From: Gemmatimonadales bacterium
GTDB taxonomy: Bacteria > Gemmatimonadota > Gemmatimonadetes > Gemmatimonadales > GWC2-71-9
DNA: 64,000 nucleotides
Reading direction: 5' to 3'
Assembly (NCBI GenBank): GCA_050733215.1
Contig: JBOHSN010000007.1
Coordinates: 3,034-67,033, forward strand
Shown here: one piece after another, positions 6,994 through 21,644 of the stretch
How the letters are laid out: the number at the start of each line of letters is the position of its first letter
Numbering within the stretch: the first letter of the stretch is position 1
Notes under the pieces: model-generated
What the model saw: the letters and a program-made list of their open reading frames with translations, nothing else
What the model was told of the DNA's origin: nothing
The model's database searches: none
Translations under genes and position numbers: made by a program

Positions 6994-7539
6994 ATGGACA
7001 CCGCGCGCAACGCCATCAGTCTCCTCTCCTACTTCGTCATCCCGGTCATCCTGGTGGGCTTCCCCCTCTACGGTCTCTACAAGCGGGTTCCGGTCTACGA
7101 GAGCTTCGTCGAGGGTGCCAAGGAGGGATTTCAGGTCGCCGTCCGCATCATCCCCTACCTCGTGGCGATCCTCTTCGCCATTGCGATGTTCCGCGCCAGC
7201 GGCGCCATGGAGGCCCTGACCCAGGCACTCGATCCGGTGCTGGGCCTGATCGGCTTCCCGGCCGAGCTGCTGCCGATGGCCATCATCCGCTCCCTCTCGG
7301 GCTCGGGCTCGGCGGCGCTGGTGGTGGACATGATCAACCAGTACGGCGAGGACTCGATCCTCGTGAAGATGGCCGCCGTGATGTACGGGTCCAGCGAGAC
7401 CACCTTCTACGTGATCGCGGTGTACTTCGGGGCGGTGAACATCAGGAAGACGCGCCACGCGGTGCCGGCGGGGCTCCTCGCGGACTTCGCCGCCATGGTC
7501 ATCGCAGTCTGGACGGTGCGGCTGCTGTTCCCCGGATGA
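6994..7539 (+). CDS. spmB: Nucleoside-recognition-domain membrane protein (SpmB-like)
   Basis: 181-aa hydrophobic ORF 8 nt after spmA. Motifs IIRSLSGSGSAA and YGSSETTFYVIAVYFG. Confidence 0.75.
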   Translation: MDTARNAISLLSYFVIPVILVGFPLYGLYKRVPVYESFVEGAKEGFQVAVRIIPYLVAILFAIAMFRASGAMEALTQALDPVLGLIGFPAELLPMAIIRSLSGSGSAALVVDMINQYGEDSILVKMAAVMYGSSETTFYVIAVYFGAVNIRKTRHAVPAGLLADFAAMVIAVWTVRLLFPG

Positions 7540-7731
7540 CGCTCGCCGCTCGACATGGCGACGGCCGTCGCCCCCGGAGAGCAGTTCGCAGGCGGGATAA
7601 GCCAGTGACGCGGCGATCGTCCAGGCGATCGGTCGGTACATGAGATCCTCGCGGTATGGTGCGTTACCGCGAGTATCGCTTCCCGGGAGCGGCTGTCAAA
7701 AAGGTGTGTCGGAAGTGACCCGATTGTTCGG

Positions 7732-8049
7732 CTACACCTCCAGCTTACGGATTCGGCGCGGCAGCCGAGCCTCTTCCAGCGCCAACCCTGCCCGGTCGCA
7801 CCGCGCGTCAACCAGGCACTCGAGCCGCTCGATCATCCCGTAGCCCAGCAGGACCGTGGCGTAGATGCCCAAACTGACGCCCGGATCACCCTGTTCGATC
7901 TTGTATAGAGTCGAACGCGAGATCGACGCGCGATCGGCCGCATACGCCATCGGCATCCGGCGCCGCCGCCGGAGATTCTTGAGGTCCGCGCCCAGCTTCG
8001 CGAGAGCTTGGGTGACGCGCGGCGGGAGTGGTGATCGCGCCTTTCTCAC
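7732..8049 (-). CDS. XRE-family HTH regulator (HipB/y4mF-like antitoxin type)
   Basis: HTH segment MAYAADRASISRSTLYKIEQG. GTG start overlaps the upstream ORF's stop (GTGA). No partner toxin gene downstream. Confidence 0.7.
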   Translation of the reverse strand: MRKARSPLPPRVTQALAKLGADLKNLRRRRRMPMAYAADRASISRSTLYKIEQGDPGVSLGIYATVLLGYGMIERLECLVDARCDRAGLALEEARLPRRIRKLEV

Positions 8050-8231
8050 GACCGTCTCGCAACTCGGCCGTTATCTCGCGTAAGGTGTGCAATAATGAAC
8101 TCGATGTGCTTGCCGCCTGGGAACGGGACAGGCACGCTCCCTGATCGTCGCCACGGTGCCAGTTTAGACCCCGCGCCCGCACCAGTCCAATCCAATTCCC
8201 GCAGCAGGTGCCGAATTTCCGAGGAGATCAT
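8046..8231 (-). CDS. Small hypothetical protein (61 aa), translationally coupled on both sides
   Basis: ATGA overlap with the upstream pseudogene's end and GTGA overlap with the XRE gene. No recognisable domain. Confidence 0.35.
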
Positions 8232-9430
8232 GACTTACGCGCCCGCAATCCGGAGCGACTCCGGTCTTGCGCTGCCGCCAGCTCGGCGCTCGCCGCCCTG
8301 ACCTTCTCGAGCAGCGCCTCGAAGCGTGGCTCGCCCCGCAGGCCGTCCAGGAGCCAGTCGTGCTCGGCGAGGAACGGGTAGTTCAGCATGCCGAGCCCGA
8401 ACTCGCGCTCGAGGCAGTCCAAGGCAAGCTCCTTCTCGCCTGCCAGCGCATAGTAGTGCGCGAGCTCGCGCGCGAACATCTCCGTGCCTCGTGCGGCGGC
8501 CTCGAACGCGGGCGTGATCGCGCGCAGGGCATCGTGGGACTCGCCGCGCAGCCCATGGGCGAGGGAGCGAGCCCAGGACGCGAAGGCGGTTCCCAGGAAG
8601 CGGTCGGCCGCGGCGTCGAGCACGGCGGTGGCTTCCTCGAGCCGGCGGTCATACGCCAGCGCCCAGCCGAGGCACACTGCGGCGAGCGGACCCTCCGGGT
8701 CCATTCGTGAAGCGGCGATAGGGCTCGACGGCGTCCGCGGAGCGTCCCTCCAGAACGGCAACGAAGCCCTGCATGCCCTGAGTGAGCGGCGTGAGCGGGT
8801 CGAGCTCGAGAGCGCGCTCCAGGAGTGCGCGCGCGTCCGCGTTGCGGCCGCCGTGTCCGTAGACGTAGCCGAGCAGGAGGAGGGTGTCCGGGTCGTCGGG
8901 CTCGAGTAGGCCATCGCGATGTAAAGCCGACTCCCCTCGAGGTCCCCGGCCCCAGCTGTGTCGACCCGATCTCGTAAACGACCCCGATGTTGGGGTGGTC
9001 CAGTGCCGAGGCGGCCCGGGCTTCGCTCTTCAGACGCGCTTGGGCCTCCGGGTCTGCAGTGAGATGAAAAGGAAGAAACTTGAGGGCCACCAGCCGATCG
9101 AGCGCGAGGTCACGGGCCTTGTAGACCACGCCCATTCCCCCGCCGCCGAGGCGCTCGAGGATCTCGTAATGACAACGACCTGCCCGGCAGGCAGGATCGC
9201 CTCTGAAAGGGCCAGGATCGCCGTCGGAAGGACCTGCTCTCGCAACCAGTCGAGGAAGTCCGGCGCAGCGGCGTGGGAGGCGAGCAGGGAGGTCAGCTCA
9301 GCACGGAGCTCGGCGTCGCTGCCGCAGGCTTTCTCGACGAAGGCGGCGCGACTCTCCGGCGACAGCCGAGCGCTCGTTCGAGTAACTCCAGCAGACGCGG
9401 TCGGTCCGCCCCGCTGCGGGCATCGGTCAT
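8228..9430 (-). pseudogene. Frameshifted, internally deleted Hanks-type Ser/Thr kinase with TPR-like C-terminus
   Basis: At least four frame changes are needed: MTDA..ELLERALG, then [29 protein letters not shown], then [32 protein letters not shown]. The catalytic core is then missing. The TPR-like tail is split over two frames and ends [28 protein letters not shown]. Confidence 0.8.
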
Positions 9431-10581: not shown

Positions 10582-12858
10582 CTACCGCAGGCGGGGGGTG
10601 TAGCGGTTCAGCGTCGCGTAGGACGGCGGCCAGGGGAGGGTGTGACCCAGGTCAGCGGCCGCATGCCGGGTCCAGTAGGGGTCCCACAGGTGAGCCCGCG
10701 CCAGCACCACCAGATCGGCGCGGCCAGCCGCCAGGATGGTGTTGACGTCGGCCGGCGACGAGATGTTTCCCACGGTCATCGTGGGCACCCGCGCTTCGTG
10801 CCGGATCCGATCACTGAAGGGAGTCTGGAACTGGCGGCCGTAGACCGGCTTCCCCTCAGCGACGGTCTGCCCCGCAGAGACGTCCACGATATCGGCCCCG
10901 GCGGCGACGACCATCCGGGCTACCTCCACCGCGTCGTGCGGCTCCATCCCGCCCGGCGCCCAGTCCACGGCCGAGATCCTGACAGACAGCGGTCTGGCCT
11001 GGGGCCACTCGGCGCGGACCCGGGTCACGATTTCCAGCGGGTAACGCATGCGGTTGGCCAGGGATCCACCGTACTCGTCGGTTCGCCGGTTGGTGAGGGG
11101 CGAAATGAACGAGGCCAGGAGGTACCCGTGCGCCAGGTGCAGCTCCAGCAAGTCGAACCCGGCGGCGTCGGCCATCCTGGTGGCGCGGACAAAGTCGGCG
11201 CCCACCTGGTCCATGTCGCCCCGGGTCATCTCTCTGGGCGTCTGGTTGTGGGGCCGGTAGGGGATGGGAGACGCCGCGATCAGCGGCCAGTTCCCTTTGG
11301 CCAGCGGCTCATCCTCGCCTTCCCAGGGCACCCGGGTCGAGCCTTTCCTGCCCGCGTGCGCCAGCTGGATGCCGATCTTGGCCTCGCTCTCCTGGTGCAC
11401 GAACTCCACGATCCGCTGCCACCCGCGGACGTGGTCCGGGAGATACATCCCGGTGCAGCCGGGGGAGATCCGGGCCTCGCGGCTCACGTCGGTCATCTCG
11501 GTCATCACCAACCCGGCGCCGCCGATCGCCCGGCTGGCGAGGTGCACCAGGTGCCAATCATTCGGAAGCCCGTCGTCCGCCCGGTACTGGCACATCGACG
11601 ACACCACGATCCTGTTAGGCAGCACCAGCTCTCGAAGCCGGTAGGGCGTAAACAACGGTGGAGGGGCGGGATCGACCGTCACAGGGCGCCCGCTCTGCCT
11701 GCCAGCCTGCTCGGCGAACCAGCGGTCCACCTGCATCACCAGCGCGGGATCGCGCAGCTTCAGGTTTTCGTGGGTGATGCGGAGGCTCCGGGTGAGCAGG
11801 GTGAAGGCGAACTGGAGCGGCTCGGTGTCATGGTAGCGTTCCGCCGATTCGAACCACTCGAGGCTTGCCTGGGCCGCGCGCTGGAGACTCTCCACCTGGG
11901 GCCGCCGGCCGGCCTCGTAGCTGGCGAGCGCAGCGGGAATCGATGCTTCGGTCTTGAGCGCCGCCGCCAGTGCAATGGCGTCCTCCATCGCCAGCTTGGT
12001 GCCCGAGCCCACCGAGAAGTGCGCCGTATGGGCGGCGTCGCCCAGCAGCACGACGTTCCCCGAATGCCAGCGGGCGTTCCGGACGGTGGGGAACCGCCGC
12101 CAGATGGAGCGGTTGGCCAGGAGCCGGTGGCCGTGCAACTCGTCGTTGAAAAGGTGCTCCAGGTAAGCGACCGTGGCCTGCTCGTCAGTCTCGTCGAGGC
12201 CGCTCGCCTTCCAGGTCTCCTCCCGGGCCTCGACGATGAAGGTCGAGCGACCCGGGGCATACTGGTAGGCATGGGTGCGCCAGAGCCCGACCGGCGAAGG
12301 CTTGAAGTAGAAGGTGAAAGCGGGAAAGGGACGGGTGCTGCCGAGCCAGACGAAGCGGTTCTGGCGCCAATCGAGGTGAGGTTGGAACTGATCCGACAGC
12401 CGGTCGCGGATCAGGCTGGCGGCGCCGTCGGCGGCGACGATCAGATCGGCGGCGGGAAGACCGCAGTCGGTAAGGTCTCGGATCTCCCGCTGCCAATGAA
12501 CCTCGACCCCGAGCGATTGCGCCCGTCTTGCGAGCAGCTCCAGCAGGGTCTTCCGTTCCAGTCCGGAGAAGCGATGCCCCGTCGACCGCATGACGGTGTC
12601 GCGGTAGTGGATCTCGATATCCTCCCACCGCGCCGCGGCAGCGGCCATCGCCTGGTTGGTCTCGGGATCGGCCTCGCCGACGTTCTCGAGGGTCTCGTCG
12701 GAGAACACCACTCCGAAGCCGAACGTGTCCTCGACCCGGTTCCGCTCGTAGACCGTCACCTGGTGGCGGGGGTCGTGGCACTTGAGCAGGATGGCGAGAT
12801 AGAGGCCGGCGGGCCCCGCCCCCACAATGGTGACGTTCACCTGGTGGCCGGCTCCCAC
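10582..12858 (-). CDS. Two-domain flavoprotein: FAD monooxygenase fused to OYE-type reductase (2-aminobenzoyl-CoA monooxygenase/reductase or salicylyl-CoA 5-hydroxylase type)
   Basis: 758 aa. N-terminal [14 protein letters not shown] and [23 protein letters not shown]-terminal OYE TIM-barrel motifs [26 protein letters not shown]. Confidence 0.85.
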
Positions 12859-14294
12859 GCCGGGGCCACCAGCCGCCGGCGGCCGTCGGCGGTGCGGGGC
12901 GTATCGTCCCCGTCGAGAACCAGGTGGTCCCAGAGCTTGCAGGTCACCTGCTTGTGCACCTGATCGAGGCCCTCGCAGTAGTTGGTGAAGACACAGCGCC
13001 GCACCTCTTGCCCCAAGCCCAGTCTGAGCTTCCGGAACCAGTCGGGGTCAGCCAGGCTCTGCCGGGCGGACGCGATGATGTCCGCCACGCCGGTCCGGAG
13101 CAACTCCTCGGCCTGCTCGAAGGTCGAGATGCCGCCCGATAGGACCACCGGCGTCCGGCACCCCACGGCGTGCACCGCCTCCCGCACGGCGCGGACGGCC
13201 TCCCGGTTCCGGCCGAACGGTCCTCGTTCATCCGACCGCACGGTCGGCATGCACTCGTAGCCACTGGGCCCCGTGTAGGGATAGCTGGCCCAGCCCACCC
13301 GCGGCTGCTTGGCGTCCTCGAACTTGCCCCCGCGAGAGAGCGAGAGGTAGTCCATCCGGGCCCGCGCAAACTCGGCTCCGAACCAGGCCGCATCCTCCGC
13401 GGTGTTTCCTCCCGGAATGCATTCCTCGGCCAGGAACCGGCATCCCACCACGAATCGCTGGCTCACCGCGCCTCGCACCGCGCGATAGACCTCGAGCGGC
13501 AATTTCACCCGATTCGCCCGGGACCCCCCGTAGCCATCGTCCCGCTGGTTCAGCGCGGAGAGAAACGACGCCATGGTGTAGGCGTGGGCGTAGTGCAGCT
13601 CCACTCCGTCGAACCCCGCCTCTTCGGCCCGCGCCGCCGCTCGAGCGAACAATCCCGGCAGTACCCGTGGCAGCTCCCGAATGTGCGGCAGCCCGGTATC
13701 GGTAACCCGCTCCCGCTCGCCGAATCGCACGCTCTCGAGCTCCCGCTCATCCAGAAACTCGGGCCACGCCTCCTCGGGCAATCGCGCCAGCGCCTCCCGG
13801 ATGGCGTCGTCGCTGCCTGGCAACAGCGCGCGGTGCCGGTCGGTGATACTCAAGAACTCGCGGAAGTATCGCTCCGGCTCCGGCCGGCGGCGGATCCGGA
13901 GGAAATCGATGATCTGGATGAACAGCCGAGTGCGTCCGCCGCTCGACTGACGGACGGTGCGCACCAGCTCCGCGAGGCCGGGGATGAACCGATCGTGCCC
14001 GATCCGGAGCAGCGGACCGCTGGGAATGTCCCGGATTCCGGTCGCCTCGACGACCAGCGCCCCGGGTTGTCCCCGCGCGAAACGCTCGTACCACGCCAGG
14101 ACCTCAGGGGTCACCAGCCCGTCGTCGGTAGCCCGCCAGGGCACCATGGCCGGAACCCAGGTGCGCTCGGTCAGCTCGAGCCGGCCGGAGCGGAGGGGGC
14201 TGAACCAGAGCGATCGGCCCGCCTCTTCCGCCGTGGGAGGGTGCGTCCCCGGGATGGGATGTTTGACGAAGGGGTCAGGGTGCCACATAGCCAC
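12837..14294 (-). CDS. NADH:flavin oxidoreductase (Old Yellow Enzyme family)
   Basis: 485 aa. [25 protein letters not shown] motif. Overlaps the downstream monooxygenase/reductase gene by 22 nt. Codons ~24-48 are duplicated at 19188-19263. Confidence 0.85.
14149..14224. repeat. Direct repeat copy 1 (inside the OYE 5' coding region)
   Basis: 76 nt with 3 mismatches to 19188-19263, followed by ~20 nt of weaker similarity. Confidence 0.9.
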
Positions 14295-14546: not shown

Positions 14547-16178
14547 TCAACTCCTCGCCCCCTCGGTCGCCCGGATGAGCCCAGGCAGGAGGCAAAGACG
14601 GAGGGTCAGCCACCACAGATACATCACCGGCCACGCGTAGAACTCCCCGTCGTTCATGAGTCCGTGCGCCATCCGATTTCGAATGTTCCCGCCAGCTGGC
14701 TCCACCGTCAGTCCCTGAAGCGCGAACACTACGTCCTCTCCCAGCACCTCCTTCAGACGCGGCAGGTAGAGGAGCTTGTTGAGACCGAACTCCGGCTGCA
14801 GACCGTACCGGTCCAAGCCGGAAACCCTCTCCCCCACTCGTTGTAGAAGCACACGGATGGCATGCTCGACCTGCGGCGCCAAGAGATGCGTTGCCTGAAC
14901 CGGATCTCCATAGAACCCCGCCACCAGCCCGTCGGCAAAGAGCCGTTCTCGTCCCCGCGGGACCAACTGGTTGAACTCCAGCAGTGGGAGAAGATCACCC
15001 GCTGCGAGCGGGTGATCGCTCAGAATCTGACGCCGCATGGGATCGATGATCATTTGTGGCAATGTGTCATGGTATTGTGCCGCGAGAGCGAGCATTTCCA
15101 TTCGCAGCGCGGCCTCGCGTTCGGATGGATCATCCGACGCCAGCGAAGCCTGACGGGCCACGACTTTCCCTTCGGTGCTGAAGAAGACCTTCGGAAAGAG
15201 CGACATCAGGAGGTACTGCTTGGCGTGTTCCTCGGACGTCTCCCTGAGCCGAGCGACAGTCGGAACCGGCGGGTAATTCGCGAAGACGAGCAGAGCTTCG
15301 AGCGCCTCCGCTACGTATGCCTCGGCGACCGCCAGCAGATGTGAGCGCTGCTCCTCCGGGTCCTTGGCTCGACCGGCCCACTCGGCCGCTAACGCCCAGT
15401 ATTCACGGGCGCGATGGAATTCCTTGATCCCGAGGGCACGCTGAGCAATGTCGGCGGCCATCGTGGCGTACCGTGCGCCGTCTTCCGTCCTCATTTCCAG
15501 CAGCAGGCGCATCAGCTTGGCGCAGAGGAAGCCTGTGTCCACCGGGGCCAACCGGGCGAGCAGCTCCTGGATGAACCCCACGACTCGCCGCAGCTCCTCG
15601 TTCCCACGACCGAGCTGCAGGGCGATGATTAGGGCGCGCTGCAGGGCCGGAAACTCCTCAGGCCACCCCCCGGGGTCGATCTGGTCAGCGAGGCTCAGGT
15701 ACGCGGTCACCGCGACCTTTGCCGCGCGATGGGCCCGGATCCGCACCCAAGCCACGTCGCCCAATCGGGCTCGAACGCGCGGGTCAGCCGTGTTCTCCGC
15801 CAGCTCGGAGAAAGTCTCGACCGCTTCCTGGCTCAAGTCCTCGATGCCGCCTGTTCGAAAGCCCTGGGTCACCATCCACGGGGTGAACGGATCGTTGGGA
15901 CGATCGACGCGAAACCCAAGGGAACAGACGTCGGCGAGGCTTTGGAAGACTGCAGCCGTGACGTTGTCGCCAGCACCCGCGGCGTGGCGCGCTTCCTCGC
16001 CGAAACGGCCTGCGAGCTCGTACAGCCGGCGGAACGGCGCCCTTGCTACGATCGCTTGCCAGTCGACGGTCGCGAAGTCGGCGAAGGTCGGTCGTGGCAT
16101 CGGGTCGGTGCGGTCGTCCGCGGTGCCTGGATTGGGAGCGGACATGTCAACTTCGACCTTTCCGGGTAGGGCAACCAT
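14547..16178 (-). CDS. Large hypothetical protein with C-terminal HEPN-like Rx4H motif (DUF4209-like)
   Basis: 543 aa, mostly alpha-helical by composition. GGNIRNRMAHG is encoded at 14664-14693. An alternative ATG lies at 16145. Confidence 0.6.
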   Translation of the reverse strand: MVALPGKVEVDMSAPNPGTADDRTDPMPRPTFADFATVDWQAIVARAPFRRLYELAGRFGEEARHAAGAGDNVTAAVFQSLADVCSLGFRVDRPNDPFTPWMVTQGFRTGGIEDLSQEAVETFSELAENTADPRVRARLGDVAWVRIRAHRAAKVAVTAYLSLADQIDPGGWPEEFPALQRALIIALQLGRGNEELRRVVGFIQELLARLAPVDTGFLCAKLMRLLLEMRTEDGARYATMAADIAQRALGIKEFHRAREYWALAAEWAGRAKDPEEQRSHLLAVAEAYVAEALEALLVFANYPPVPTVARLRETSEEHAKQYLLMSLFPKVFFSTEGKVVARQASLASDDPSEREAALRMEMLALAAQYHDTLPQMIIDPMRRQILSDHPLAAGDLLPLLEFNQLVPRGRERLFADGLVAGFYGDPVQATHLLAPQVEHAIRVLLQRVGERVSGLDRYGLQPEFGLNKLLYLPRLKEVLGEDVVFALQGLTVEPAGGNIRNRMAHGLMNDGEFYAWPVMYLWWLTLRLCLLPGLIRATEGARS

Positions 16179-16248
16179 GATCCCGAGTAGGGTGATTAAG
16201 TTGTAACATGACTTGGGCTTGCGGCCCCAGGGCCAAGCCTTGCGATGG

Positions 16249-16262
16249 CCATAGATCTATGG
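16249..16262. promoter_or_regulatory. Candidate operator in the divergent promoter region
   Basis: Perfect 14-bp palindrome CCATAGATCTATGG in the AT-rich 130-bp spacer between the HEPN-like gene and the Xre-RES operon. Confidence 0.45.
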
Positions 16263-16309
16263 TATATTAACGGTAACTAACAGCAGGATATACCGCTAAG
16301 CTGGAGTAT

Positions 16310-17116
16310 ATGATGCCCCCAGCCAAGAAACCACTCCCCGACGCGGTCGCTAGCGGCGTGGATGCGCTTGCCACCCTGGTCGCCGAACGCAGCAAGTCGG
16401 CCGAGAGTCCCAGTGGCGTGTGGTTCAAGCTGCCCAAGCATCCCGCTCGTCTGGCAAAAGGCGAGTTGCTCATCGCGGTCATCGAGGACAATGCGGTCGT
16501 AGTGCGCACCGTGCGCAGACCCCCCGGGCTCAGAGTCGGAGGCTGGTCCAACGCCGTTCGCGCGAGCTACGTCGCCCAGCGCCTCGGGGATATCGAGACC
16601 ACGGTGGGCCAGGTCCTGAATGCGGCCCTCGGCGGGGCGTCTGAATCGAGTGTCCTGACGGAGGACGAGGAACGCGTTCTAGCCTCGGGCGATTTGGACA
16701 CTTCATCGCTCCCGGTGGAGGATGCAGAGCCGATCACCCGGGCCGCACTCGAGTATGCGCACCTGCTTCAATCCAGCCTAAGCGTCGACGAAGCCGCGAA
16801 ACGGCTGGACGTGGACCCCAGCCGAATCCGGCAGCGTCTCGCCGGTGAATCGCGTACTCTGTATGGGGTGAAAGAGGGGAAGAGCTGGCGACTGCCGCGA
16901 TTTCAGTTCGCCGGACGAAAACCGGTGCCGGGAGTCGACCGGGTCATTGCGGCGCTTCCGGCGGATCTGCATCCCGTCGCGGTGTGGCGGTGGTTCACGA
17001 CTCCGCATCCCGACTTGTGCGCGGACGCCGAGGAGGAGCAGCCGATCTCGCCCCTCGACTGGCTGCGAACCGGACGGCCGCCGGAAGTAGTCGCGGAAAT
17101 CGCCCGCGGGGCCTGA
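16310..17116 (+). CDS. Xre-like antitoxin of a RES toxin (HTH + toxin-binding domain) with ~120-aa N-terminal extension
   Basis: C-terminal half SLSVDEAAKRLDVDPSRIRQRL...WRLPRFQF...HPVAVWRWFTTPHPDL matches the Xre/MbcA/ParS antitoxin architecture. A RES gene follows 13 nt downstream. Confidence 0.75.
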   Translation: MMPPAKKPLPDAVASGVDALATLVAERSKSAESPSGVWFKLPKHPARLAKGELLIAVIEDNAVVVRTVRRPPGLRVGGWSNAVRASYVAQRLGDIETTVGQVLNAALGGASESSVLTEDEERVLASGDLDTSSLPVEDAEPITRAALEYAHLLQSSLSVDEAAKRLDVDPSRIRQRLAGESRTLYGVKEGKSWRLPRFQFAGRKPVPGVDRVIAALPADLHPVAVWRWFTTPHPDLCADAEEEQPISPLDWLRTGRPPEVVAEIARGA

Positions 17117-17129
17117 GTCGCCGCTGGCG

Positions 17130-17756
17130 GTGGCCAAGTTTCCCGAGCCGCCTTCGGTGGCCACGCTCGCCGCGGTTCATCCGGACCGTGCTGTCGTCCC
17201 CCAGAGCACTAGGCTCTGGCGAATCTACTTTGCCGGGGGTGCTTACCCCGTCGCCTGGAATGCCTTTCGGGATTTCGGTCCTACGAACAGCCGGTTCGAC
17301 CATCATCTCCCACCAAGCGCGGTACAGGACCGGGGCATTCTCTACGCGGCTACAAACGGAATGACGCCGTTCGCGGAGGTCTTTCAGGAGACCCGCGTGA
17401 TCGACCGGCGCCGAAACGCACCCTGGTTGGTGGCGTTCGATTTGGGCCGGCCGCTCGAGCTCCTCGATCTCACCGATAGCTGGCCGACTCGCGCGGGGGC
17501 ATCCATGGCCATCAATTCCGGGCCACGGCCCAAAGCCCGCCGGTGGTCGCAACGGATCTACGAGGCGTACCCGACGATCGAGGGCCTGTCGTATCCCTCC
17601 TCCATGGACGGCAACCGTCCCGCCGTGGCGCTGTACGAGCGGGCGCTGGACGCCTTGCCCGCGCGGCCCGTTTTCCACCGGGCGCTTGCGGACCCGGCAC
17701 TTTCGGTCGCCGTGATTCGGGCTGCGCGGAGGTTTGGCTATGCCGTCGTGGGATGA
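17130..17756 (+). CDS. RES-domain toxin (MbcT/ParT-like)
   Basis: 208 aa, GTG start. R/E/S signature positions in NSRFDHH, TPFAEVF and LSYPSSMDG. Confidence 0.8.
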   Translation: MAKFPEPPSVATLAAVHPDRAVVPQSTRLWRIYFAGGAYPVAWNAFRDFGPTNSRFDHHLPPSAVQDRGILYAATNGMTPFAEVFQETRVIDRRRNAPWLVAFDLGRPLELLDLTDSWPTRAGASMAINSGPRPKARRWSQRIYEAYPTIEGLSYPSSMDGNRPAVALYERALDALPARPVFHRALADPALSVAVIRAARRFGYAVVG

Positions 17757-18302
17757 CCTGATTCTACTCCCCGCTCACGACCGGGTCCACCGATTGCTGA
17801 CGCTTCAGCACTCATAGGCGCGCCCGCTTCCAGCGCTGGCTCATCTCGATCACTCCGTCCCGACACGTCTGCGCGATAACTGCTGCCGCTGTGAAGGGGG
17901 CCGAGGGCGAGGCGACCTGAGAGGCCGTAGAGTATTGGGCCACAATGCGAGTTCGCACACGCAGTCGTGGCCTGAAATCGGGAAGGGAGCGTCGTTGCGC
18001 TCACCGTTCGAGTTCATGGTGCAGATGGGGCGAATAGGTGTCGGCTGCTAGCGGTAGGAGCCTAGCCTGTTCGCATACTGCCGACGAGAACCGGAACAGC
18101 ATCTTGAGTCGGCGTATTTTGCCACGAGAATACTCCTACCTCTAAGCGCGCTTCCCTGATGGCATTCGCCGGCTCGGAAAAGATCCGGAAGCGAAATGGA
18201 TGGTTTCTTATTTGCGCAACCGAGGGCCAAGGCTGAACGGATAGGACAGGGCACCAGCCTGACTAACACTCCTAGGACATCGTAAGCGCGAGCGGTACCG
18301 TC

Positions 18303-19016
18303 ATGGCTGTCAAGGTGAATCCGATGAAACTGGGCGGCAATTGGGCAGTGCGCTTTGGTGTTGGGTCGCGCGACGGCCCGAAGTCTGGCGTGTGGCGGAG
18401 GTGGACACCTGCACGCAAGAGCGATGTGTATATCGCGATCCGCTCATACACAGGTATCATGAAGGTCAGCCTACACGAGTCAGGGGAGTGCTTTGTCGCC
18501 CTAACCGAGCAGTTCGCCGAGCGCAATCCCACAGCCCTCGTCGGGAGGTCGCGGCGATTCGATCAGTGGAAGAGGGTCACTCATGCCGGCTCCCAACTGT
18601 GAGTAGGCTTTAGGCTCGCGTTCCCCGGAAACGAGCTGCGCCTGTTCCGTTCTCCAGATGATCAGGACGACAAAGTCAAGTGGATCGATGCTCCCCCGAG
18701 CGACTACTCTGTCGAAGTGGGCTGCATTTTCACTGGTCAGTGCTATTCGAGCGACGAGTGGCCGCTCAGACGGCAAGGTATCCATCTGCTCGACTGGACG
18801 TTGCTACCAAACGGTGAGGTGTTCTGGGTCCTCTTCACAGTGCATCCGACCTTCCGGTTCGTCGAGGCTACAGTGCGTCGGACACAAGAAGAGATGCGGG
18901 GGCCATGCGCCGTTACGATTGGCGATCTGGACTTGGATTCTCCCAGCGCCAGGATCGTAGTCCCTGGCATTGACTCTTCAGGGGTACGCGTGTTCACGGA
19001 TGTCGCTTTTACATAG
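18303..19016 (+). pseudogene. Low-GC orphan ORF (238 codons) interrupted by a single in-frame TGA at 18600-18602
   Basis: Track ORFs 18303..18602 and 18717..19016 are in the same frame, with no other stop between them. No recognisable domain. GC is visibly lower than the surroundings. Confidence 0.5.
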
Positions 19017-19054
19017 CACGATTGCGGGACCCTGACCTGGCTCTGCAGCAGCAA

Positions 19055-19690
19055 TCAGACGGGCCGCTCCGACTTCCGAATCCAAACGGGTTGGTCAGGT
19101 TTCCGCCTCCAGGTGCGCAACTGAGCGGCCGTAAGCTCCCGCACTTCTACCAGCGGTTCGGGGTCGCTCGATGCTCTGCGCAGCAAGGCCGGAACCCAGG
19201 TGCGCTCGGTCAGCTCGAGCCGGCCCGAGCGGAGGGGGCTGAACCAGAGCGACCGGGCCGCCTGATCCGGCGGAGGGTTCACCAGGCAGATCCACGCATA
19301 GCTGCCTGCCTCCAGGTACTGTGTCGCGTTTGACTCGCCGTGCGGGTCGGCCACGCCTGGGCCGCCGAGCCGCTTTGCCCACTCCGGCCGTGGACCGACC
19401 GTGCGGAACGCTTCGCTGTACGCCTGGAGGAAGTCGTCCAATGTCCTGCCGCCCTCGAGCTTGATCAGCTGCGCCATGTGGAACTGTTCGCTGTTGTTCA
19501 CCATGCGGAAGGTGGTGAACCCTGCCGGGATCGTGTCAGGTGCCTCGAACGCGTAATCGATGGCGGTCAAGATGACCACGGTCGGGGCGGCGGCCGCGTT
19601 GGGGTGAGGCGCCTCATTACCCGCCGTGCAGGCGGCGACCAATGCGACGATCGCGATCAGCGGGGCAGGGGTGGTGGAGTGTGCAGACAT
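19055..19690 (-). CDS. Secreted lipoprotein (cupredoxin-like hypothetical) with a chimeric C-terminus
   Basis: Signal/lipobox LIAIVALVAAC. After ...AWICLVNPPPD the ORF runs into the duplicated OYE segment and unrelated sequence, so the native 3' end appears to be lost. Confidence 0.5.
   Translation of the reverse strand: MSAHSTTPAPLIAIVALVAACTAGNEAPHPNAAAAPTVVILTAIDYAFEAPDTIPAGFTTFRMVNNSEQFHMAQLIKLEGGRTLDDFLQAYSEAFRTVGPRPEWAKRLGGPGVADPHGESNATQYLEAGSYAWICLVNPPPDQAARSLWFSPLRSGRLELTERTWVPALLRRASSDPEPLVEVRELTAAQLRTWRRKPDQPVWIRKSERPV
19188..19263. repeat. Direct repeat copy 2 (displaced fragment of the OYE 5' region)
   Basis: 76 nt with 3 mismatches to 14149-14224. Encodes [24 protein letters not shown], as in the OYE N-terminus. 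Confidence 0.9.
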
Positions 19691-20991: not shown

Positions 20992-21348
20992 TTAGGCAGC
21001 GGTTGGCGACTTGCCCGCCCGGCGCAGCGCCGGGAGCCGCTTGATCTGCCGGATCCGCCGGGCCTCGGGCGAGCGGCTCGCCTGGTAGAGATCCCAGGCC
21101 ATCTGGAGGTTCAGCCAGAACTGGGCCTCCATCCCGAACAGTTGCTCCAGACGGAGCGCCGTGTCCGGCGTGACGCCGCGCTTGCCATGAATCAGTTCGT
21201 TCACCCGGGGATAAGAGACCCCGAGACGCTCGGCCAATTCCCGCTGGGTAAGGGCGAGGGGCTTGAGGAATTCCTCGAGCAGCATCTGCCCGGGGTGTGT
21301 GGGAGGTCGATTGGTGGGAATTCGCACCATGCTAGACCCCTTTGTCAC
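20992..21348 (-). CDS. higA: HigA-family antitoxin (XRE HTH)
   Basis: HPGQMLLEEFLKPLALTQRELAERLGVSYPRVNELIHGKRGVTPDTALRL is a canonical HigA sequence. Confidence 0.9.
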   Translation of the reverse strand: MTKGSSMVRIPTNRPPTHPGQMLLEEFLKPLALTQRELAERLGVSYPRVNELIHGKRGVTPDTALRLEQLFGMEAQFWLNLQMAWDLYQASRSPEARRIRQIKRLPALRRAGKSPTAA

Positions 21349-21350
21349 GC

Positions 21351-21644
21351 TCAGTGGTAATCGGCGATCTCGACATCTGCCGGCCCGGCATCTGTCCAGT
21401 CGAAGCAGATGCGGAGTTGGTCGTTGATCCGGATACTAAACTGTCCGGCTCGGTCTCCCTTCAGGGACTCCAGGCGATTGCCCGGTGGGACTCGAAGCGA
21501 GACCAAGCTCACCGCGGCATTCAGCAGGTCGAGCTTGCGCCGGGCGATTGCCCAGAGACTCGACGGGCACGCACGCCTGGCGGCCTTGGTGTCGCGACCA
21601 TGAAAGACGTCCTCCGTGCCAGCATCGGCAAAGGTGACGATCAC
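21351..21644 (-). CDS. higB: HigB-family toxin (RelE/ParE superfamily)
   Basis: 97 aa. LESLKGDRAGQFSIRINDQLRICFDW motif. Lies immediately upstream of higA. Confidence 0.9.
   Translation of the reverse strand: MIVTFADAGTEDVFHGRDTKAARRACPSSLWAIARRKLDLLNAAVSLVSLRVPPGNRLESLKGDRAGQFSIRINDQLRICFDWTDAGPADVEIADYH

What the first reader, a model, noticed from the sequence alone, without database searches (positions are those of the whole stretch)
14547..16178. Large orphan protein with a C-terminal RNRMAH (Rx4H, HEPN-like) motif beside a RES toxin module: candidate abortive-infection or defence gene
The 543-aa protein has no obvious enzymatic domain until GGNIRNRMAHG, 38 aa from the C-terminus (encoded at 14664-14693).
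Rx4-6H preceded by a small or polar residue is the signature of HEPN RNases, as in the Abi2/AbiD-F, Cas13, Csm6 and HepT families.
The overall layout recalls DUF4209-type proteins, whose function is not established.
The gene is divergently transcribed from an Xre-RES (NAD+-targeting toxin family) pair. The shared AT-rich promoter region carries a perfect palindrome, CCATAGATCTATGG, and the whole unit lies within an islet.
Basis: partly seen in the sequence, partly recalled or inferred. Interest (0 to 1): 0.7.

Follow-up and report, generated by a model that had tools for sequence, protein, structure and literature searches.

The report
Internally deleted HEPN defence-candidate gene (PDC-S39)
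The gene is not an orphan: it belongs to a large, already catalogued but never tested family of candidate anti-phage RNases (DUF7380-DUF4209, PADLOC "PDC-S39"). This copy has lost 78 conserved codons and sits beside a separate toxin-antitoxin pair in a small inserted islet.

Summary
ORF 14547-16178(-) exists and encodes GGNIRNRMAHG at 14661-14693, with a RES gene nearby and the palindrome at 16249-16262.

The protein is not an orphan. It matches Pfam DUF7380 + DUF4209 and PADLOC candidate system PDC-S39 (460 bits). The family has at least 6,775 cluster representatives. DUF4209 was assigned to the HEPN RNase superfamily in 2013 (C6orf70/ERMARD family).

The HEPN reading holds up:
- R500-N-x3-H505 and E438-x3-R442 are invariant.
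- The predicted helix order fits the HEPN fold.
- The best PDB fold match is a HEPN protein, though weakly (TM about 0.5).

Relatives occur as single genes with changing neighbours, in several settings:
- inside type I restriction-modification operons;
- in the P2-prophage old/tin hotspot;
- on plasmids and integrative conjugative elements (ICEs);
- next to SIR2, Argonaute (pAgo) and CBASS-type genes.

New here: this copy lacks 78 conserved codons, in frame, that all 159 full-length relatives keep. Its closest relatives carry other lesions or lack the gene.

The HTH-RES pair is an independent module, and its antitoxin candidate is not a canonical Xre. The palindrome is not conserved. A 5-kb islet bounded by 93-nt direct repeats is real.

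Verdict: a new, probably impaired, member of a known and untested family. Interest is modest.

The parts
14547..16145 (-). Coding sequence of the DUF7380-DUF4209 (PDC-S39 family) protein. It is 532 aa from the probable start M12; the maximal ORF runs to 16178 (543 aa).
   Evidence: ORF listed. Pfam DUF7380 E 1e-36 and DUF4209 E 9e-15. PADLOC PDC-S39 E 4e-138 in two stretches. Start inferred from P0001, P0008 and the upstream alignment.
15591..16097 (-). DUF7380 domain (aa 28-196, 543-aa numbering). It begins the TPR-like helical N-terminal half and holds the strongly conserved LRARLxDVAW motif.
   Evidence: Pfam. Weak TPR matches by sequence (KLC1, E 0.03) and by fold (LGN and consensus TPR, E >= 6e-3). 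Invariant R138, D141 and W144.
15302..15303 (-). Junction of an in-frame 234-nt (78-codon) internal deletion, between A292 and L293.
   Evidence: All 18 aligned homologues, and 159 of 159 full-length relatives, keep the segment. blastn against the closest relative L009 places the missing piece at L009 2652-2885.
14550..14966 (-). Predicted C-terminal HEPN domain (aa ~405-543); Pfam DUF4209 covers aa 437-527.
   Evidence: AF2 model of aa 400-543: pLDDT 86.9, pTM 0.80. Helix order: H1, H2, insert, H3, distorted Rx4H, H4. Best PDB fold match is 2q00_A, a HEPN-T protein (prob 0.80, TM 0.48/0.56, E 0.93). DUF4209 = C6orf70 HEPN family (PMC3710099).
14853..14867 (-). E438-x3-R442, matching the Ex3[KR] motif of HEPN helix 2.
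   Evidence: Invariant in 19 of 19 sequences and >=90% conserved in 159 relatives. Motif definition from PMC3710099.
14664..14681 (-). R500-N501-R-M-A-H505, the Rx4H catalytic motif with a polar residue after R.
   Evidence: Read from the sequence. Invariant in the alignment. Present in 165 of 167 family proteins.
16179..16309 (.). Divergent intergenic region (49% GC). Predicted sigma-70-like promoter for the HTH-RES operon: -35 at 16240-16245, -10 at 16263-16268. Palindrome at 16249-16262 in the spacer. Conserved inverted repeat GGTATAT (16261-16267) / ATATACC (16288-16294).
   Evidence: Promoter scan. Palindrome. Alignment with L009: palindrome not conserved, while about 57 nt from ATGG at 16259 through the -10 element and the inverted repeat are identical.
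16310..17116 (+). 268-aa putative DNA-binding partner (antitoxin candidate) of the RES protein. It has no Pfam family above threshold.
   Evidence: Weak HTH_17/wHTH matches at aa 150-197. 326 homologues, nearly all without a Pfam domain, a few named excisionase-family DNA-binding protein. Paired with RES on its own in L091.
17130..17756 (+). 208-aa RES-domain protein (toxin candidate).
   Evidence: Pfam RES E 7e-12, profile positions 1-146 of 157. dN/dS 0.19 against L009. No close solved structure.
14141..14233 (.). Left copy of the 93-nt direct repeat bounding the islet. It lies in the 5' part of the OYE-like gene 12837..14294(-).
   Evidence: the repeat finder family D1: 91% identity, spacing 5039 nt.
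19180..19272 (.). Right copy of the 93-nt direct repeat. It forms part of the 3' region of ORF 19055..19690(-).
   Evidence: the repeat finder family D1. The peptide [22 protein letters not shown] is encoded in both ORFs.
17757..19179 (.). Low-GC (0.57-0.62) remainder of the islet. It holds only short ORFs without family matches and no integrase.
   Evidence: Composition profile. Pfam scan of seven ORFs found nothing. The public gene call there is a single 99-aa ORF.

Best explanation
**Identity.** The gene is a member of the widespread DUF7380-DUF4209 family, which PADLOC lists as the single-gene phage-defence candidate PDC-S39.

**Architecture.** The N-terminal half is DUF7380 followed by TPR-like helical repeats. 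It is inferred to act as the sensing or auto-inhibitory part. The C-terminal ~140 aa form a HEPN domain with the two HEPN active-site motifs, E-x3-R on helix 2 and R-N-x3-H after helix 3.

**Inferred mechanism of the family.** The protein stays latent until a phage cue is sensed. In the R-M-embedded members the cue may be loss of the partner restriction complex, as for PrrC. The HEPN domain, probably as a dimer, then cleaves RNA without metal. That stops translation and aborts the infection.

**This copy.** It has an in-frame deletion of 78 conserved codons between the helical half and the HEPN domain. It is most likely an impaired or decaying allele.

**Neighbours.** The HTH-RES pair is a separate toxin-antitoxin-type module. 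Both travel together in a ~3.2-kb unit, inside a ~5-kb islet inserted at the 5' end of an OYE-like gene.

**Shown versus inferred.** Shown here: family membership, motif conservation, the deletion, the genomic contexts and the independence of the modules. Inferred: RNase activity, the phage trigger, abortive infection, and loss of function of this allele.
For: **Family membership**
- Pfam DUF7380 + DUF4209 and PADLOC PDC-S39 at 460 bits.
- 6,775 cluster representatives at E <= 1e-3; nearly all of the top 150 are 590-640 aa.

**HEPN domain**
- DUF4209 is the C6orf70 HEPN family, with Rx4-6H conserved, fused to TPR, and occurring in R-M related operons (PMC3710099).
- R500, N501, H505, E438 and R442 are invariant.
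- The modelled helix order fits the published description. The top PDB fold hit is the HEPN protein 2q00, and Csm6 also appears lower in the list.

**Defence context**
- Neighbours of relatives include SIR2, pAgo, DndB/TGT, SMODS, MORC-like ATPases and ICE genes.
- 14 of 78 genomic loci hold type I R-M genes within 10 kb. In 6 of them the gene lies between hsdM and hsdR.
- No neighbour family recurs in more than 7 of 78 loci, so the gene behaves as a single-gene system.
- A family member occupies the gpA-gpQ old/tin hotspot of P2-like prophages in 21 E. coli genomes (hotspot defined in PMC9122126).
- 31 plasmids carry a member.

**Deletion and decay**
- The deletion is documented.
- L009 carries frameshifts and a stop codon.
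- L093 and L094 keep the HTH-RES pair but lack the gene except for about 22 nt of its 5' end.

**Independence of HTH-RES**
- The pair occurs alone in L091.
- 0 of 78 other family loci have RES nearby.
Against: - No family member has been tested for RNase or anti-phage activity in any paper found. PDC means an unconfirmed candidate.
- The fold match to HEPN is weak: Foldseek E 0.93, TM about 0.5. No PDB sequence match exists.
- The remaining 532 codons are intact. dN/dS against L009 is low (0.31 and 0.14).
- AF2 models a confident continuous helix across the junction. The shortened protein could therefore still fold and work.
- The lesions in L009 come from a single short-read assembly and could be errors.
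- Defence-island enrichment was not measured against a control set.
Confidence: 0.58

Rival explanations
1. The shortened allele is a fully functional anti-phage HEPN effector. The deletion removes three dispensable helices of the helical repeat region and leaves sensing and RNase activity intact or merely retuned.
For: - The reading frame is open over all 532 remaining codons.
- Every HEPN motif residue is present.
- AF2 gives pLDDT above 90 around the junction, with one continuous helix at aa 274-301.
- Low dN/dS against L009 shows selection acted until recently.
Against: - None of 159 full-length relatives lacks the segment. It holds positions conserved at 80-92%.
- Sister loci show independent loss or damage of the same gene.
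- dN/dS averages over the whole divergence and cannot date the deletion.
Confidence: 0.3
2. The HEPN gene and the divergent HTH-RES pair form one three-gene system. For example, the HTH protein would control both promoters, and the two effectors would attack RNA and NAD+ together.
For: - The three genes are conserved as one 3.2-kb block in two different genomic contexts. Homology ends exactly at the block edges.
- They share a divergent intergenic region. A 57-nt stretch of it, containing an inverted repeat, is fully conserved.
Against: - The two blocks are 89-92% identical in DNA, so their co-occurrence reflects recent common descent.
- 0 of 78 other family loci have RES or the HTH partner nearby.
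- The HTH-RES pair occurs alone in L091 and, without the HEPN gene, in L093 and L094.
- The family otherwise behaves as a single-gene unit.
Confidence: 0.07
3. The protein is a housekeeping or stress-related RNA-processing factor, like the role proposed for eukaryotic ERMARD, and not an immune gene.
For: - The eukaryotic branch of the family is conserved and was predicted to act in RNA degradation at the ER membrane (PMC3710099).
- No defence phenotype has been published.
Against: - The distribution is patchy across phyla, with different neighbours in almost every locus.
- Members sit on plasmids, ICEs, a P2 prophage hotspot and inside R-M operons.
- Only 21 of 5,426 complete E. coli genomes matched the one E. 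coli member queried, at the DNA level.
- The gene is lost or damaged in close relatives.
Confidence: 0.05

Closest known systems
PADLOC PDC-S39 (phage defence candidate, single gene) = Pfam DUF7380 + DUF4209
   Same: Full-length HMM match (E 4e-138) with the same two Pfam domains. Relatives such as P0002, the L022 gene, a Klebsiella plasmid gene and P2-EC46 ORF612 match the same models end to end.
   Different: The window protein matches in two stretches because 78 residues of the model's centre are missing. The family itself is only a candidate, with no published test.
C6orf70/ERMARD HEPN family (Anantharaman et al. 2013, PMC3710099)
   Same: DUF4209 overlaps this family. Shared features are the conserved Rx4-6H motif, fusion to TPR-like repeats, and bacterial members in R-M operons. 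All three features were seen here.
   Different: Eukaryotic members have a transmembrane region and are predicted to act at the ER. The bacterial protein here has no evident membrane segment: its hydrophobic last helix is modelled as HEPN helix 4 and carries the invariant R527.
PrrC / RloC anticodon nucleases
   Same: A C-terminal HEPN RNase joined to an N-terminal regulatory domain. prrC sits inside a type I R-M locus, and the restriction complex keeps PrrC latent (PMC3710099). Six family loci have the same position between hsdM/hsdS and hsdR.
   Different: The regulatory domain here is DUF7380 with TPR-like repeats, not an ABC ATPase. There is no sequence match to PrrC or RloC models in PADLOC. 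The window copy has no R-M genes beside it.
Abi2/AbiD-AbiF, Cas13, Csm6/Csx1, HepT
   Same: The same superfamily-level Rx4-6H RNase motif. Csm6 appears among the fold matches (5yjc_A, TMq 0.46).
   Different: No Pfam or PADLOC match to any of these families at E <= 1. The domain architectures differ, and there is no CRISPR or MNT partner.
Xre-RES / MbcTA / ParST toxin-antitoxin systems
   Same: A two-gene operon with an upstream DNA-binding-type gene and a downstream RES-domain gene. The pair occurs on its own elsewhere.
   Different: The partner is 268 aa with only sub-threshold HTH_17-type matches. It has no HTH_3/Xre or MbcA/ParS C-terminal domain match, and there is no PDB relative for either protein.

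Membership tests
DUF7380-DUF4209 / PADLOC PDC-S39 | Match to the family HMMs above threshold | tested here: met
   Pfam DUF7380 126.9 bits (cut-off 27) and DUF4209 55 bits (cut-off 22.3). PDLC05011 459.7 bits.
DUF7380-DUF4209 / PADLOC PDC-S39 | Full-length, collinear coverage of the ~600-aa family profile | tested here: not met
   The match falls in two stretches. 78 residues are missing that 159 of 159 full-length relatives retain. The protein is a member by descent but structurally incomplete.
DUF7380-DUF4209 / PADLOC PDC-S39 | Protection against phage | not testable with these tools
   No experimental report was found for any member. PDC systems are described as not confirmed.
HEPN superfamily | Rx4-6H motif with a polar residue after R, at the end of helix 3 | tested here: met
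   R500-N501-x3-H505 is invariant. In the model it follows helix 3 in a distorted short helix. Criterion from PMC3710099.
HEPN superfamily | Conserved acidic residue in helix 2, typically Ex3[KR] | tested here: met
   E438-H-A-I-R442 is invariant and lies in the long helix at aa 426-447.
HEPN superfamily | Four-helix up-down bundle with an insert between helices 2 and 3 | tested here: inconclusive
   The AF2 model (pLDDT 86.9) has the expected helix order, with an insert at aa 448-480. The best PDB hit is the HEPN-T protein 2q00, but at E 0.93 and TM 0.48/0.56. Published profile searches place DUF4209 in HEPN.
HEPN superfamily | Metal-independent endoribonuclease activity | not testable with these tools
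   Requires biochemistry.
Xre-RES toxin-antitoxin | RES domain in the toxin | tested here: met
   Pfam RES E 7e-12, 46 bits against a cut-off of 23.2.
Xre-RES toxin-antitoxin | Antitoxin with an Xre-type HTH (HTH_3) and an MbcA/ParS-type C-terminal domain | tested here: not met
   HTH_3 E 0.21; the best match is HTH_17 at E 0.01, and all are below threshold. No DUF2384-type match. No PDB relative. Homologues carry no Pfam domain.
Integrative genomic islet | Flanking direct repeats, deviant composition, and the same cargo in a different context elsewhere | tested here: met
   93-nt direct repeats at 91% identity. GC dip. The three-gene block sits in another context in L009.
Integrative genomic islet | Integrase or recombinase gene, or an identified empty site | tested here: not met
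   No integrase-like ORF in 14.2-19.3 kb. No tRNA in the window. An empty site was not searched for.

The most novel reading that the evidence does not exclude
The three-gene block, a HEPN gene facing the HTH-RES operon, might be a functional unit. The HTH protein would regulate both divergent promoters through the fully conserved inverted repeat at 16261-16294. Two effectors, one acting on RNA and one on NAD+ or ADP-ribosylation targets, would then be released together on infection. In this reading the 78-residue deletion would be an adaptive retuning of the HEPN sensor rather than decay.
Probability: 0.07. Interest if true: 0.6.

Novelty: new member of a known kind. Interest (0 to 1): 0.33.

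Why it matters
The family is large, with at least 6,775 clusters at 50% identity. It spans many bacterial phyla and some archaea, and it has a eukaryotic branch (ERMARD). It occupies classic anti-phage positions, yet nobody appears to have tested it.

It also points to intact members in tractable hosts:
- P. aeruginosa PAO1 (a PDC-S39 instance reported in PMC11878078);
- E. coli P2-like prophage ORF612;
- Klebsiella IncF plasmids.

The window copy itself is of limited value because it is internally deleted. It is useful mainly as a natural deletion variant and as an example of rapid turnover of defence genes.

Tried and rejected
1. **Whole-protein fold search against PDB.** Only weak TPR-type hits appeared, driven by the N-terminal half. 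I modelled and searched the C-terminal 144 aa separately instead.
2. **Fold search against viral predicted structures.** Nothing meaningful.
3. **Sequence and profile searches against PDB.** Tried with the whole family and with the C-terminal domain; no relative has a solved structure.
4. **Is the deleted central segment a degenerate second HEPN or internal duplication?** Rejected: hhalign probability 0.4%.
5. **Is the palindrome the operator?** Weakened. It lies in the promoter spacer, but it is not conserved in L009 and is one of 16 such palindromes in the window. A neighbouring inverted repeat is fully conserved instead.
6. **Three-gene system with RES.** Rejected as the main reading.
7. 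**The ~1650-aa ORF downstream of the P0011/P0018 clade as a conserved partner.** The two examples are 91% identical, so they are not independent.
8. **PADLOC scan of 146 immediate neighbours for an enrichment figure.** The output counts models, not proteins, so no clean statistic came out and I did not run the control set. I counted R-M components with local phmmer instead.
9. **First dN/dS run.** It used an out-of-frame split of the gene. I corrected this.
10. **Literature searches** for DUF4209, DUF7380, PDC-S39, ERMARD+HEPN and P2-EC46/ORF612. No functional study turned up.
Full report
**1. The observation**

The ORF 14547..16178 on the minus strand is real and encodes 543 aa. The peptide GGNIRNRMAHG is aa 496-506, encoded at 14661-14693. 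R500 is at 14679-14681 and H505 at 14664-14666, and H505 lies 38 residues from the end.

The probable start is M12 at 16145, giving 532 aa. That is the public gene call (P0001) and the start of the closest relative (P0008). Upstream of it the alignment with that relative has an indel.

Across a 131-nt intergenic region of 49% GC lie a 268-aa ORF (16310..17116) and a 208-aa RES-domain ORF (17130..17756; Pfam RES E 7e-12). The palindrome CCATAGATCTATGG is at 16249-16262.

**2. What the protein is**

It is not an orphan. Pfam finds DUF7380 (aa 28-196, E 1e-36) and DUF4209 (aa 437-527, E 9e-15). PADLOC-DB finds its single-gene phage-defence candidate PDC-S39 at 460 bits.

A profile of 19 homologues finds 6,775 cluster representatives at E <= 1e-3 among 1.84 billion. 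Of these, 2,473 score below 1e-30, and nearly all of the best 150 are 590-640 aa long.

A scan of one genome per species returned 160 relatives. They span Gemmatimonadota, Chloroflexota, Cyanobacteria, Proteobacteria (including Vibrio, Lysobacter and Variovorax), Verrucomicrobiota, Planctomycetota, Deinococcus and an archaeon. The nearest homologues (67% identity) are from Gemmatimonadales metagenome-assembled genomes.

**3. Is the C-terminus a HEPN domain?**

- *Published evidence.* Anantharaman et al. 2013 list DUF4209 as overlapping the C6orf70 (ERMARD) family of the HEPN superfamily. They note a conserved Rx4-6H motif, fusion to TPR, and bacterial members in R-M related operons (PMC3710099).
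- *Motifs.* The same paper defines the signature as Rx4-6H with a polar residue after R, at the end of helix 3. It adds an acidic residue in helix 2, typically Ex3[KR], and an insert between helices 2 and 3.
- *Conservation here.* R500, N501, H505, E438 and R442 are invariant in 19 sequences. All are at least 90% conserved in 159 full-length relatives. An R[polar]x3H motif near the C-terminus is present in 165 of 167 proteins in hand.
- *Model.* An AlphaFold model of aa 400-543 has pLDDT 86.9 and pTM 0.80. Its helix order is H1 (411-422), H2 (426-447, carrying Ex3R), an insert with short strands and helices (448-480), H3 (481-491), a break, a short helix with RNRMAH, and a long H4 (516-540).
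- *Fold search.* Foldseek against PDB puts 2q00_A first (probability 0.80, TM 0.48/0.56, E 0.93) and lists Csm6 (5yjc_A) further down. The 2013 paper classifies 2q00 as a HEPN-T (PaREP1) structure.

The structural match is weak, so I rate the fold test as consistent but inconclusive. The motif tests are met. No member has a solved structure.

The N-terminal half is helical with weak TPR-type matches.

**4. Genomic contexts of relatives**

Five metagenomic or genomic loci show the gene next to a range of defence and mobility genes:
- SIR2_2-DUF4020;
- a Piwi-domain Argonaute with a DpnII/MboI-type nuclease;
- DndB plus a TGT-like gene;
- SMODS;
- DUF87 with MORC-like ATPases;
- relaxase, NikA, integrase and SSB genes of integrative elements.

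In 78 loci from different species, no neighbouring protein family recurs in more than 7 loci. The gene therefore behaves as a self-contained unit.

The recurrent neighbours are type I R-M subunits, a YhcG nuclease and GmrSD. Fourteen of the 78 loci hold a type I R-M component within 10 kb. In six, the gene lies between hsdM/hsdS and hsdR. That is the position prrC has in its own R-M locus (PMC3710099). PIN and TIR genes recur in 4 and 3 loci.

Thirty-one plasmids carry a member, annotated as a DUF4209 domain-containing protein; 12 are Klebsiella plasmids, and the one inspected is a conjugative IncF replicon.

A distant member, ORF612 of prophage P2-EC46, matches PDC-S39 at E 2e-67. It is present in 21 of 5,426 complete E. 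coli genomes. In strain ECC-1470 it lies between the P2 replication endonuclease and portal genes. This is the old/tin locus that Rousset et al. defined as an anti-phage hotspot (PMC9122126).

I could not produce a controlled enrichment statistic.

No paper in the searchable library reports a functional test of this family. PDC systems are described as unconfirmed candidates, and PAO1 is reported to carry one PDC-S39 (PMC11878078).

**5.

The window protein lacks 78 aligned residues that every homologue has.

At the DNA level, window 17760-15295 matches L009 195-2659 at 89% identity. Window 15303-14554 matches L009 2885-3634 at 92%. The junction is A292|L293, at nt 15303|15302. The missing piece is L009 2652-2885, which is 234 nt and in frame.

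The lost segment translates to a good match of the family consensus. It holds positions conserved at 80-92%. None of 159 full-length relatives lacks it. It is not a second HEPN-like unit.

AlphaFold models a confident continuous helix across the junction, so folding may survive.

**6. The local clade is decaying**

- L009 carries the same three genes, but its HEPN gene has frameshifts and an in-frame stop. It is called as three ORFs.
- L093 (a genome assembly) and L094 (an independent read assembly) share only window 16124-17758. This covers the HTH-RES pair, the intergenic region and about 22 nt of the HEPN gene's 5' end. Their RES gene has a frameshift just before the YPSS motif.
- dN/dS between the window and L009 is 0.31 (N-terminal part) and 0.14 (C-terminal part) for the HEPN gene. 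It is 0.25 for the HTH gene and 0.19 for RES.

The gene was therefore under purifying selection for most of the divergence, and the lesions are recent. Taken together, I judge it more likely than not (about 0.55-0.6) that the window allele is impaired. This is inference. The L009 lesions rest on one short-read assembly.

**7. The neighbours**

The 268-aa protein has only sub-threshold HTH matches and no Xre or MbcA/ParS-type domain. It has no PDB relative. Its large family has essentially no Pfam annotation.

A 46%-identical homologue is paired with a 207-aa RES protein in an ordinary metabolic neighbourhood, with no HEPN gene nearby. None of the 78 other family loci has RES or this partner. 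The HTH-RES pair is thus an independent toxin-antitoxin-type module. Its adjacency to the HEPN gene is confined to one recent lineage.

The predicted promoter of the pair has -35 at 16240 and -10 at 16263-16268, and it carries the palindrome in its spacer. But L009 has GCCGGGAACCCATGG where the window has GCCATAGATCTATGG. The next ~57 nt, from ATGG at 16259, include the inverted repeat GGTATAT-N20-ATATACC and are identical in both. The window holds 16 perfect 14-nt palindromes.

**8. The islet**

A 93-nt direct repeat, 91% identical, lies at 14141-14233 and 19180-19272. The first copy is inside the 5' end of the OYE-like gene. The second is inside the 3' part of ORF 19055..19690. Together they bound about 5.0 kb of lower GC.

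The 3.2-kb three-gene block has different flanks in L009. No integrase or tRNA is present. The insertion is therefore old, or it was mobilised in trans.

**9. Mechanism and verdict**

The best-supported model for the family is a single-chain sensor-effector. A DUF7380/TPR-like N-terminal half holds a C-terminal HEPN RNase latent until infection. RNA cleavage then arrests the cell.

For the R-M-embedded members, a PrrC-like guard role is the natural analogy. Everything after 'HEPN motifs are conserved' is inferred.

The finding is a correct recognition of a known but untested family, so its novelty is 'new member of a known kind'. The window copy is a deletion variant and is of modest interest. 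The family as a whole remains a worthwhile experimental target.

Noticed in passing
window 14141-14233 and 19180-19272: A 93-nt direct repeat (91% identical, 5,039 nt apart) duplicates part of the 5' coding region of the OYE-like gene. As a result the peptide [22 protein letters not shown] is encoded both in that gene and at the 3' end of ORF 19055..19690. It looks like a target-site or att duplication around a ~5-kb insertion that has no integrase.
   Followed up: partly
window 20992-21348(-) and 21351-21644(-): A HigB-like toxin (97 aa) and an HTH_3 HigA-type antitoxin (112-118 aa) lie about 5 kb to the right, in the same lower-GC stretch (0.62-0.66). This is a second toxin-antitoxin module near the islet.
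   Followed up: partly
L093 7730-8366 and L094 1159-1790: In two independent assemblies of a related locus, the RES gene carries the same frameshift just before its conserved YPSS motif. The HEPN gene there is absent except for about 22 nt of its 5' end.
   Followed up: partly
L005 11937-16877; L006; L007 11706-16682; L008: In the ~54%-identity clade (P0011, P0018), on ICE-like elements, the family gene is followed directly and co-directionally by a ~1,650-aa ORF. That ORF has only a weak AAA_16 P-loop match. The copies compared are 91% identical, so conserved linkage is not shown.
   Followed up: partly
L097 (E. coli ECC-1470, NZ_CP010344.1) 7001-8839; L095: A PDC-S39 family member (P2-EC46 ORF612) occupies the gpA-gpQ old/tin hotspot of a P2-like prophage and is found in 21 of 5,426 complete E. 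coli genomes. It is a convenient intact family member for experiments.
   Followed up: yes
window 16261-16294: The inverted repeat GGTATAT-N20-ATATACC overlaps the predicted -10 element of the HTH-RES promoter. It lies in a 57-nt stretch that is 100% identical to L009, against an 89% background. It is a better operator or leader candidate than the reported palindrome.
   Followed up: partly
window 15740-15780 (aa ~134-146): The most conserved motif of the N-terminal DUF7380 domain is LRARLxDVAW (R136, A137, R138, D141, W144). It is nearly invariant across the family and its role is unknown.
   Followed up: no
window 10582-12858(-) and 12837-14294(-): To the left of the islet lie a 758-aa fusion of an FAD-dependent monooxygenase with an OYE-type FMN oxidoreductase, and a second OYE-like gene. 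Acyl-CoA dehydrogenase, enoyl-CoA hydratase and amidohydrolase genes lie to the right. The islet appears to interrupt a catabolic gene cluster.
   Followed up: no
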